DNA of 38,040 nucleotides, from the sequence record PQ850616.1; one strand, given 5' to 3'. The position numbers and the translations under genes were made by a program. The notes below the pieces were generated by a model. It was not told where the DNA came from. It worked only from the letters and a program-made list of their open reading frames with translations, and did no database searches. Origin of the DNA: Escherichia phage Louie. Positions 36,932 through 37,402 of the stretch are shown piece after piece (position 1 is the stretch's first letter; the number at the start of each line of letters is the position of its first letter).

Positions 36932-37402
36932 ATGACCCAGCATATTGGCGTAAAACTGATTAACGCCTTTCCGATGACGAGACAGGCATATAACGATTTT
37001 CGTGGCTGGCAGCTTCCTGCCGGAGAAAACGGCGAGGATGAAGGCTATCTGGTTGAATATCTTGATGGCGGAAAACCTAACACCGATCGCTTTGATGGCT
37101 ACGTTAGCTGGAGTCCAAAAGAAGTATTCGAAAAGGCTTATCGTCCGGTATCAGGGCTAAGTTTCGGCCTTGCCATTGAAGCGCTCAAGTTGGGGAATAA
37201 AGTTGCCCGTGCTGGCTGGAATGGTAAGGGGATGTATCTGTTCATTATCCAGCAGAATGCTTGGGGGTTTGAGTGTGACCTGGACGGAGTTAATGGCCTT
37301 GTGACGCTGCCATGCATTTGCATGAAGACAGCGGACGATAAATTAGTACCGTGGCTGGCTAGTCAGACTGATGTTCTAGCAGAAGACTGGCAAATCATTT
37401 AA
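36932..37402 (+). CDS. Hypothetical late protein (156 aa), C-terminal half possibly DUF2829 (Tad2-like)
   Basis: C-terminal …FGLAIEALKLGNKVARAGWNGKGMYLFII…KLVPWLASQTDVLAEDWQII resembles what I recall of DUF2829; unverified. Confidence 0.6.
   Translation: MTQHIGVKLINAFPMTRQAYNDFRGWQLPAGENGEDEGYLVEYLDGGKPNTDRFDGYVSWSPKEVFEKAYRPVSGLSFGLAIEALKLGNKVARAGWNGKGMYLFIIQQNAWGFECDLDGVNGLVTLPCICMKTADDKLVPWLASQTDVLAEDWQII

What the first reader, a model, noticed from the sequence alone, without database searches (positions are those of the whole stretch)
36932..37402. Possible DUF2829 (Thoeris anti-defence Tad2-like) domain in the first gene after Rz
The C-terminal half (…GLAIEALKLGNKVARAGWNGKGMYLFII… PWLASQTDVLAEDWQII) matches my recollection of the DUF2829 signature, the family to which Tad2 (a sponge for Thoeris signalling molecules) belongs. 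The N-terminal about 70 aa is an extra domain. The gene sits in a late, post-lysis cargo slot with its own upstream terminator.
Basis: inference. Interest (0 to 1): 0.6.

Follow-up and report, generated by a model that had tools for sequence, protein, structure and literature searches.

The report
Two-domain Tad2 immune-signal sponge gene
The first gene after the lysis genes of this P22-like phage really does encode a Tad2-family protein, which most likely soaks up the bacterial Thoeris alarm molecule, and it carries an extra N-terminal domain that also sits in front of three other kinds of phage sponge protein and whose own role is still unknown.

Summary

The beta2-beta3 insertion is short (21 aa) and lacks the HgmTad2 cyclic-dinucleotide pocket residues. 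That insertion is a swapped cassette inside otherwise identical E. coli prophage alleles.

Residues 1-74 form a separate, more conserved domain with no Pfam model. It is homologous to the N-terminal domain of the recently described 'RyR Tad', which is a domain-swapped dimer in the crystal and inactive alone against type I Thoeris. In other phages the same domain precedes Tad2, Acb4, Sequestin or RyR sponge domains.

The gene lies in a small anti-signalling island between Rz and DUF2560/terminase. The neighbouring Acb4 cassette is cleanly absent here.

The gene is already annotated 'DUF2829 domain-containing protein', and its Kapi1 orthologue was already proposed to be Tad2-like. It is therefore a new member of a known kind. 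Ligand, oligomeric state and defence inhibition were not testable. The N-domain is the open question.

The parts
36884..36909 (+). Terminator-like hairpin (stem 36884-36904) plus T-run between Rz and the gene. It also marks the left edge of the DNA block shared with Kapi1, ES9 and Huey.
   Evidence: Consensus scan. Fold -15.2 kcal/mol, z -1.24. Identity to Kapi1, ES9 and Huey jumps from about 40% to more than 90% at about 36885-36898.
36922..36925 (+). Weak Shine-Dalgarno-like AGGT, 6 nt before the ATG.
   Evidence: Read directly from the sequence.
36932..37402 (+). CDS of 156 aa: N-domain plus Tad2-like domain (two-domain sponge protein).
   Evidence: ORF list; PHROG 872 full-length E 1.3e-68; 100% identical protein clusters in public data.
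36932..37153 (+). N-terminal domain, residues 1-74: four strands and two helices, with no Pfam or NCBIfam model. It is homologous to the N-terminal domain of phage CB1 gp68 (RyR Tad).
   Evidence: no family; 1566 representatives; homology to CB1 gp68: BLASTP E 5e-6, HMM 25.1 bits against at most 6.5 in 999 shuffles; Foldseek hit to the Yersinia phage TG1 RyR-domain protein; secondary structure.
37154..37399 (+). Tad2-like (DUF2829, PF11195) domain, residues 75-156. The canonical ADPR-signal pocket residues are W96, N97, M131, T133, D135, V139, W141, S144, T146 and D147.
37228..37320 (+). Hypervariable cassette encoding the beta2-beta3 insertion (residues about 100-130; the insertion proper is 107-127). 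It is swapped between otherwise identical alleles.
   Evidence: Window against E. coli G3/10: 100% DNA identity over 36842-37225, 3-50% inside the cassette, 93-100% again from 37327. At least 30 insertion types occur among the 120 closest homologues.
37404..37455 (+). Strong stem-loop just after the stop codon (inner 9-bp stem 37419-37440). There is no U-run, so it is not a canonical intrinsic terminator.
   Evidence: Fold -23.3 kcal/mol, z -5.3, 0 of 200 shuffles fold as well.
37660..37661 (.). Empty site of the Acb4 (PF13876, Sf6 gp66-type) cassette that follows this gene in related phages.
   Evidence: Window 37412-37660 and 37662-37764 align to the DNA on either side of the Acb4 gene in Sf6, Huey and E. 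coli 55989. No Acb4 remnant is found by tblastn.

Best explanation
The gene encodes a two-domain phage counter-defence 'sponge'.

Shown here: residues 75-156 are a bona fide Tad2-family domain by sequence profile, fold and pocket residues.

Inferred from the solved homologues: the domain assembles into a homotetramer. Its two inter-protomer pockets capture the TIR-made ADP-ribose-derived alarm molecule of Thoeris, so the ThsA effector is never switched on and the phage completes its cycle. The most likely ligand is 3'cADPR (1''-3' gcADPR). His-ADPR or N7-cADPR are possible alternatives or additions.

The short 21-aa beta2-beta3 insertion lacks the residues that form the second, cyclic-dinucleotide pocket of HgmTad2. 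A cGG/cGAMP site of that type is therefore not expected. That insertion is exchanged as a cassette between alleles, which fits its role as the specificity-tuning part of the family.

Residues 1-74 are an independent, more conserved module shared with RyR Tad, whose N-terminal domain is a beta1-swapped dimerisation domain with no anti-type I Thoeris activity on its own. The most likely role here is dimerisation or scaffolding in front of the sponge domain (inferred).

The gene is one of two independently present or absent cassettes (N-domain-Tad2, Acb4) in an anti-signalling island between Rz and DUF2560/terminase of P22-like phages. It is transcribed at least with the late operon. The Kapi1 orthologue is also very abundant in lysogen RNA.
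For: Family and fold:
- Pfam PF11195 E 9.3e-27.
- phmmer to SPO1 Tad2 8sme/8wje E about 4e-17, ModTad2, SptTad2 and HgmTad2/AcrIIA7.

Pocket:
- SPO1 contacts W25, N26, T65, D67, W73, S76, T78 and D79 are identical. I63->M and H71->V differ (residue list from bioRxiv 10.1101/2023.05.01.538930).
- HgmTad2 CDN residues: R31->I106, N85->gap, and S47/F70 fall in the missing insertion (alignment; residues from 10.1101/2023.11.15.567273).

N-domain:
- Homology to CB1 gp68.
- Properties of gp68_N from bioRxiv 10.64898/2026.06.04.730250.

Island:
-.

Expression:
- Kapi1_043 has an identical N-domain and 5' region. It is reported as the most highly expressed Kapi1 gene (PMC12922286).
Against: Tad2 homologues with similar pockets differ in which signal they bind: ModTad2 does not block type I Thoeris, and others hit type II or IV Thoeris, CBASS or Pycsar. 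The ligand therefore cannot be read from sequence.

H71 of SPO1 is not conserved.

The host of this phage may lack Thoeris; the Kapi1 host does.

The N-domain's dimerisation role is transferred from a relative with 34% identity. The AF2 monomer model cannot show strand swapping.

No own promoter was found.
Confidence: 0.7

Rival explanations
1. It is a Tad2-family sponge whose true target is not the type I Thoeris signal. The target would be another immune nucleotide (His-ADPR of type II Thoeris, N7-cADPR of type IV, or a Pycsar or CBASS signal), bound in the canonical pocket or in the pocket shaped by the 'AWGFE' insertion.
For: Tested Tad2 homologues show wide functional diversity, and each tested system was inhibited by at least one homologue (PMC12393519). 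The best structural match is ModTad2 bound to His-ADPR. The insertion is hypervariable and swapped as a cassette, as expected if specificity is under selection.
Against: The canonical pocket residues match SPO1 Tad2 (T146 as in SPO1, where ModTad2 has S). The insertion is short and lacks the HgmTad2 CDN residues. Li et al. predicted only about 1% of short Tad2 proteins to be unable to bind gcADPR.
Confidence: 0.2
2. It is an anti-CRISPR of the AcrIIA7 type, as annotation pipelines label the Huey orthologue.
For: AcrIIA7 (9kzr, 8kbi) is a sequence and fold relative. Huey_CDS0064 is annotated 'anti-CRISPR protein'.
Against: The AcrIIA7 anti-Cas9 activity could not be reproduced in vitro or in vivo, and the protein was reassigned as a Thoeris/CBASS sponge (10.1101/2023.11.15.567273). 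E. coli has no type II-A CRISPR-Cas (general knowledge). The same label is put on the neighbouring Acb4 gene of Huey, which shows it is a pipeline artefact.
Confidence: 0.03
3. It is a lysogeny-expressed moron that modulates host nucleotide physiology or prophage induction, rather than a counter-defence used during lytic growth.
For: Kapi1_043 is the most abundant Kapi1 transcript in lysogens whose host lacks Thoeris. The gene is flanked by hairpins like a self-contained cassette.
Against: The same data set shows high scaffold and capsid RNA, which points to spontaneous induction. No promoter was found. The homologous architecture occurs in strictly lytic N4-like phages inside their anti-signalling hotspot. 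The neighbouring cassette is the anti-CBASS sponge Acb4.
Confidence: 0.07

Closest known systems
SPO1 Tad2 (gp34.65; PDB 8SME/8SMF/8WJE), the founding Thoeris anti-defence 2 sponge
   Same: Same Pfam domain and same fold. About 46% identity over the domain. Eight of ten gcADPR-contact residues are identical. The beta2-beta3 insertion is short in both (21 against 24 aa).
   Different: SPO1 Tad2 is a single 89-aa domain, whereas this protein has a 74-aa N-terminal domain in front. H71->V and I63->M. The insertion sequence is unrelated. The phage is a temperate P22-like virus of Enterobacteria, not a lytic Bacillus myovirus.
HgmTad2 / AcrIIA7 and SptTad2 (PDB 8KBI-8KBM, 8WJC, 8WJD): dual gcADPR and cyclic-dinucleotide sponges
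   Different: Their 35-41-aa insertion builds a second pocket for cGG/cGAMP. Here the insertion is 21 aa, and R31, S47, F70 and N85 have no equivalents (residues).
ModTad2 / MoTad2 (PDB 8V3E, 9EIB): His-ADPR (type II Thoeris) and cUMP sponge
   Different: ModTad2 has a single domain and a longer insertion with an extra pocket. Position T78 of SPO1 is S in ModTad2 but T here.
Kapi1_043 (Escherichia phage vB_EcoP_Kapi1), E. coli G3/10 and IME10/Huey alleles, and N4 gp49
   Same: Same two-domain architecture. The Kapi1, G3/10, IME10 and Huey alleles occupy the same slot after Rz in P22-like phages. The N-domain is 100% identical in Kapi1. Kapi1_043 has already been proposed to be Tad2-like. N4 gp49 has the same architecture next to Acb4 (gp48).
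   Different: The beta2-beta3 insertion differs: 21 aa here, 38 aa in Kapi1 and G3/10, 31 aa in Huey and IME10. The commonest E. coli allele (strain 55989) keeps the N-domain but carries a different, SPO1-like Tad2 domain with altered pocket residues.
RyR Tad (Pectobacterium phage CB1 gp68)
   Same: Homologous N-terminal domain (34% identity over 67 aa; HMM 25 bits) placed in front of a gcADPR sponge domain.
   Different: Its C-terminal sponge domain is an all-helical RyR Repeat12-like domain, not Tad2, and the protein is a dimer.
Acb4-Tad2, Tad2-Sequestin and Acb4-Sequestin fusion sponges (Tal et al., PMC12265669)
   Same: Multi-module sponge proteins. The same N-domain is found in front of or between these modules in other phages.
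   Different: This protein has only one recognised sponge domain. Its partner domain has no Pfam family, so the Pfam-based fusion screen of that paper (as its methods describe it) would not have detected it (inference).

Membership tests
Tad2 / DUF2829 (Pfam PF11195) | Significant match to the family profile above the curated threshold | tested here: met
   93.8 bits against a gathering score of 25, E 9.3e-27, covering 72 of 73 profile positions.
Tad2 / DUF2829 (Pfam PF11195) | [quoted passage not shown] | tested here: met
Tad2 / DUF2829 (Pfam PF11195) | Conserved gcADPR pocket residues (SPO1 W25, N26, I63, T65, D67, H71, W73, S76, T78, D79) | tested here: met
   Eight are identical, one is conservative (I->M) and one is changed (H->V).
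Tad2 / DUF2829 (Pfam PF11195) | Homotetramer with pockets at protomer interfaces | not testable with these tools
   Only monomer prediction was available.
Tad2 / DUF2829 (Pfam PF11195) | Binds and sequesters a TIR-derived signal and inhibits Thoeris in vivo | not testable with these tools
   This needs binding assays and infection assays.
HgmTad2/SptTad2-type dual sponge (second cyclic-dinucleotide pocket) | Long (35-41 aa) beta2-beta5 insertion carrying R31, S47, F70 and N85 | tested here: not met
   The insertion is 21 aa. R31->I106, N85 aligns to a gap, and the S47/F70 region is absent.
AcrIIA7-type anti-CRISPR | Inhibition of Cas9 | not testable with these tools
   The protein shares the domain only. 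The published activity was not reproducible according to 10.1101/2023.11.15.567273.
RyR Tad N-terminal domain family (no Pfam model) | Sequence and fold homology of residues 1-74 to CB1 gp68 residues 1-70 | tested here: met
   BLASTP E 5e-6. HMM 25.1 bits against at most 6.5 bits in 999 shuffles. Foldseek hit to the Yersinia phage TG1 RyR-domain protein, E 1.3e-3.
RyR Tad N-terminal domain family (no Pfam model) | Beta1-swapped dimer forming a five-stranded sheet | not testable with these tools
   The monomer model shows four strands and two helices. Strand swapping cannot be modelled here.
Lockin, Acb5 and Tad3-Tad8 (other recently named anti-signalling families) as the identity of the N-domain | Sequence or fold identity with those families | tested here: inconclusive
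   Lockin is reported absent from INPHARED genomes, whereas the N-domain is in 136 of them, so Lockin is unlikely. The Tad3-8 paper is not held. The authors who annotate Tad3 in N4-like hotspots still call gp68_N a fold of unknown function.

The most novel reading that the evidence does not exclude
The conserved N-terminal domain (residues 1-74) is not just a dimerisation handle but a fifth functional anti-signalling module. It would be either a sponge for a signal not yet tested or a device that protects sponges from host counter-measures.

This applies the same 'fused to known sponges' reasoning that led to Sequestin. The domain precedes Tad2, Acb4, Sequestin and RyR sponge domains. It also occurs without a recognisable partner domain. 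It is more conserved than the sponge domains it accompanies. About 28 of its positions are nearly invariant, many of them aromatic or charged.
Probability: 0.2. Interest if true: 0.7.

Novelty: new member of a known kind. Interest (0 to 1): 0.4.

Why it matters
The Tad2 assignment itself is routine, but it adds to a pattern. P22-like temperate phages of E. coli, Shigella and Salmonella carry a small anti-signalling island after the lysis genes. Its Tad2 and Acb4 cassettes come and go independently.

Two by-products deserve follow-up. First, the part of Tad2 that forms the second ligand pocket in other homologues is exchanged as a cassette between otherwise identical prophage alleles. This gives a natural allelic series for studying how sponge specificity evolves.

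Second, an unnamed 70-aa domain sits in front of four unrelated sponge families, and I found no description of this in the literature held here. Working out its role (assembly, a new ligand, or evasion of sponge-sensing systems) would clarify how multi-module sponges are built. It would also give a new search handle for undiscovered anti-defence domains: 46 of 150 N-domain proteins have no recognised partner domain, most of them with an unassigned stretch of 35 aa or more and seven with none.

Tried and rejected
- PADLOC and NCBIfam profiles gave no hit.
- The N-domain profile against all PDB sequences gave no credible hit.
- A search for an own sigma-70 promoter found none by the standard scan. 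My own scan found only a weak extended -10 (TGAAATAAT, 36846-36854), which lies upstream of the hairpin and is not shared with Kapi1.
- Rfam found nothing in or around the gene. The only hit was a sub-threshold isrK-like match in the late leader.
- The unassigned regions next to the N-domain did not cluster into a new common family. They were mostly singletons or frameshifted fragments.
- I could not obtain the Tad3-Tad8 paper or the sequences of the 18 Tad2 proteins tested by Hadary et al.. I therefore cannot say whether a two-domain form has been tested.
- I did not find the Pasteurella phage Pm86 Acb4-Tad2 fusion, so I could not check whether its 'unmodelled linker' is this domain.

Full report
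**Setting.** The 38,040-base window looks like a complete P22-like (Lederbergvirus) phage genome. It is written from the small terminase gene (1-489, Pfam GP3_package) to a DUF2560 gene (37763-38005). The closest records are IME10, Huey, HZ41, Kapi1 and Sf6. Upstream of the finding lie antiterminator Q (34170-34793), holin (35624-35956), lysozyme (35868-36389), and Rz (36386-36853) with embedded Rz1.

**Observation.** The ORF (ATG to TAA, 156 aa) is present and contains the quoted peptides.
- Pfam gives one hit: PF11195 'Tad2-like' (formerly DUF2829), E 9.3e-27 and 93.8 bits against a gathering score of 25, over residues 77-156 and 72 of 73 profile positions.
- PHROG 872 (unknown function) covers the full length at E 1.3e-68. 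Other PHROGs match only the N- or only the C-terminal half, a first sign of two modules.
- phmmer against all PDB sequences finds SPO1 Tad2 (8sme, 8wje; E about 4e-17), ModTad2 (9eib, 8v3e), AcrIIA7/HgmTad2 (9kzr, 8kbi) and SptTad2 (8wjd). All of these align to residues 74-156 only.

**The Tad2 domain in detail.** The SPO1 Tad2 paper lists the ligand contacts as W25, N26, I63, T65, D67, H71, W73, S76, T78 and D79 (bioRxiv 10.1101/2023.05.01.538930). In a MAFFT alignment these map to W96, N97, M131, T133, D135, V139, W141, S144, T146 and D147. Eight are identical, one is conservative and one is changed. The residues whose mutation abolished gcADPR binding in HgmTad2 (W21/N22 and S90/T92/D93) are all conserved (alignment).

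The second pocket of HgmTad2 and SptTad2 binds cGG and cGAMP. It is built by a 35-41-aa insertion between beta2 and beta5 and uses R31, S47, F70 and N85. Here the insertion is 21 aa (residues 107-127). R31 aligns to I106 and N85 to a gap, and the S47/F70 segment does not exist. I therefore predict a canonical ADPR-signal pocket and no HgmTad2-type dinucleotide pocket.

Which ADPR-type signal is bound cannot be read from sequence. Tad2 homologues with similar pockets inhibit type I, II or IV Thoeris, CBASS or Pycsar in various combinations (PMC12393519). ModTad2 does not inhibit type I Thoeris.

**A swapped cassette inside the gene.** I compared the window allele with orthologues in the same slot of Kapi1, E. 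coli G3/10, ES9, Huey and IME10. The N-domain and both ends of the Tad2 domain are identical or nearly so. The beta2-beta3 insertion comes in three unrelated versions of 21, 38 and 31 aa.

At the DNA level, G3/10 is 100% identical to the window from 36842 to about 37225. Identity falls to 3-50% over 37228-37320 and returns to 93-100% from 37327. Among the 120 closest database homologues, all at least 62% identical overall, there are at least 30 insertion types. The window's type (AWGFE.D..GV..L.TLP) recurs in marine Gammaproteobacteria.

Among 5,426 complete E. coli genomes, 45 carry a close relative. Only three (EC2001, ES5, ES9) share the whole gene. In the sampled rows (30 of the 45 records), most match only nucleotides 1-252, that is the N-domain and the first turns of helix alpha1, at about 98-99% identity, and then diverge. 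The strain 55989 allele has an identical N-domain joined to an SPO1-like Tad2 domain (49% identical to SPO1 Tad2) with different pocket residues. The sponge domain, and its insertion in particular, is thus the diversifying part, and the N-domain is the constant part.

An exhaustive phmmer search with residues 1-74 found 1,566 cluster representatives at E<=1e-3. The domain sits at N-terminal, internal or C-terminal positions in proteins of 72-370 aa. Pfam scans of the best 150 showed three recurrent partner families:
- PF11195 (Tad2), 53 proteins;
- PF21825, 37 proteins;
- PF13876, 22 proteins.

The literature identifies both of the other partners as validated sponge families. PF13876 is Acb4, a cGAMP sponge (PMC11722364). 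PF21825 is Sequestin, a 3'cADPR sponge that was itself discovered because it is fused to Tad2 and Acb4 (PMC12265669).

My own domain parsing of the 150 proteins gave:

| Architecture | Count |
|---|---|
| N-domain-Tad2 | 50 |
| N-domain alone or with an unassigned partner | 46 |
| N-domain-Sequestin | 24 |
| N-domain-Acb4 | 7 |
| Acb4-N-domain-Sequestin | 7 |

Rarer combinations make up the rest.

Examples in sequenced phages:
- N4 gp49 is N-domain-Tad2, next to gp48, which is Acb4.
- crAssphage gp41 and Clostridium phage CP51 gp007 are N-domain-Acb4.
- Burkholderia phage CSP3 has N-domain-Sequestin; Pseudomonas phage Skulduggery gp08 has N-domain-Tad2; Pseudomonas phage inbricus gp38 has N-domain-Acb4-Sequestin.

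A fourth partner emerged from a June 2026 preprint (10.64898/2026.06.04.730250). Pectobacterium phage CB1 gp68, 'RyR Tad', has a C-terminal RyR-like gcADPR sponge domain. [quoted passage not shown] In the crystal that domain forms a beta1-swapped dimer, and on its own it had no activity against type I Thoeris.

I fetched gp68 and found that its N-terminal domain is homologous to residues 1-67 of the window protein:
- BLASTP gives 34% identity, E 5e-6.
- An HMM of the N-domain scores 25.1 bits, against at most 6.5 bits for 999 shuffles.
- Foldseek against BFVD independently finds a Yersinia phage RyR-domain protein through the N-domain (E 1.3e-3, 32% identity).

Within N-domain-Tad2 proteins the N-domain is much more conserved than the Tad2 domain (58% against 33% mean pairwise identity; 1030 of 1035 pairs). 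That set was selected by N-domain similarity, so the E. coli genome result is the fairer evidence.

The best-supported role is a dimerising scaffold in front of sponge domains. This is inferred from a 34%-identical relative. An independent ligand-binding or guard-evading function is not excluded, because only type I Thoeris was tested for gp68_N.

**Genomic slot and expression.** The place between Rz and DUF2560/terminase is variable in P22-like phages. Rha, KilA-N, GIY-YIG, Gp49-family and DUF2829 genes are all annotated there. Two cassettes concern immune signalling:

| Phage or prophage | N-domain-Tad2 | Acb4 |
|---|---|---|
| This window | present | absent |
| Kapi1, G3/10, ES9 | present | none annotated |
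| Sf6 | absent | present (gp66) |
| Huey, E. coli 55989 | present | present |

In the window, the 360-nt non-coding stretch 37403-37762 aligns to the DNA on both sides of the Acb4 gene of Sf6, Huey and 55989. The junction is at about 37660/37661 and no remnant is left.

The homology block shared with Kapi1, ES9 and Huey starts at the upstream hairpin (about 36885-36898). A very stable stem-loop follows the stop codon (z -5.3). The gene therefore looks like a self-contained cassette.

No convincing sigma-70 promoter precedes it. Transcription with the Q-antiterminated late operon is the default assumption, based on established knowledge of lambdoid late operons. RNA-seq of the Kapi1 lysogen found the orthologue Kapi1_043 to be the most highly expressed prophage gene, and the authors already proposed it to be Tad2-like. 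They also noted that the host lacks Thoeris (PMC12922286). Scaffold and capsid RNAs were also high in that data set, so spontaneous induction combined with a hairpin-stabilised transcript is an alternative to a lysogenic promoter.

**Comparison with what is known, and novelty.** RefSeq annotates the same or nearly the same protein as 'DUF2829 domain-containing protein' in E. coli chromosomes and on an Enterobacter asburiae plasmid. The family has thousands of members, and an orthologue has been discussed in print. As a Tad2 homologue it is a new member of a known kind.

The 'anti-CRISPR' label that some pipelines give to orthologues goes back to AcrIIA7, whose activity could not be reproduced.

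Two points go beyond the literature I could read. One is the recurrence of a single unnamed domain in front of four unrelated sponge families. The other is the cassette-like exchange of the Tad2 insertion between otherwise identical prophage alleles. Both are computational observations. Neither changes the main reading of the gene.

**Confidence.**
- Membership of the Tad2 family: about 0.95.
- Acts as an immune-signal sponge against Thoeris-type signalling: about 0.7.
- The ligand is specifically 3'cADPR: about 0.5.
- The N-domain is mainly a dimerisation or scaffold module: about 0.5. I give about 0.2 to an independent anti-signalling function.

Noticed in passing
window 37403-37762 (junction about 37660/37661): This non-coding stretch is the empty site of an Acb4 (PF13876, Sf6 gp66-type anti-CBASS sponge) cassette. 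Its two halves align to the DNA on either side of that gene in Sf6, Huey and E. coli 55989. A roughly 60-nt segment (about 37455-37515) is shared with IME10 and Sf6 but is missing in ES9, Kapi1, G3/10, Huey and 55989.
   Followed up: yes
window 34969-35385 (- strand): A 138-aa ORF on the opposite strand lies between antiterminator Q and the holin, where relatives such as Sf6 and Kapi1 carry tRNA genes. It has a coiled-coil-like N-terminal half and a CxxC...CxxC zinc-ribbon-like C-terminus. There is no Pfam hit. It matches PHROG 1244 (unknown function) at E 5.8e-26.
   Followed up: partly
window 35439-35516 (+): Sub-threshold Rfam match to the isrK Hfq-binding sRNA (21.2 bits against a gathering score of 50, E 0.11). 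It overlaps a terminator-like hairpin at 35494-35511. This is probably the late-operon leader with its tR' terminator downstream of Q.
   Followed up: no
L002 (phage Huey) 3025-3525 and 3760-4140: Both the N-domain-Tad2 gene and the neighbouring Acb4-family gene are annotated 'anti-CRISPR protein'. This appears to be a pipeline label inherited from AcrIIA7, not evidence of function.
   Followed up: partly
Plasmid record NZ_CP129515.1 (Enterobacter asburiae) 68496-68963: A protein 100% identical to the window protein is encoded on a 139-kb record classed as a plasmid in a different genus. This suggests recent transfer of the prophage or cassette, or a prophage or phage-plasmid within that record.
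   Followed up: no
Protein P0195 (354 aa, metagenomic): An HNH/AP2 homing-endonuclease-like segment sits between the N-domain and the Tad2 domain of one homologue. This is either a mobile-element insertion at the domain boundary or a gene-calling fusion.
   Followed up: no
L014 (Pseudomonas phage Skulduggery) 890-1683: The N-domain-Tad2 gene gp08 is directly preceded by gp07, which has a sub-threshold match to the Acb2/Tad1 hairpin domain (24.9 bits against a cut-off of 27). This may be another small anti-signalling cluster, located next to the portal gene.
   Followed up: partly
L012 (E. coli 55989 prophage) 2501-2980: In the sampled rows, most E. coli alleles keep the N-domain at about 98-99% DNA identity. 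The 55989 allele, the one examined, carries an SPO1-like Tad2 domain in which several canonical pocket residues are changed (KNSQNRLATWVPSIGD instead of KTADNKIHAWVPSQTD). Its ligand specificity may therefore differ.
   Followed up: partly
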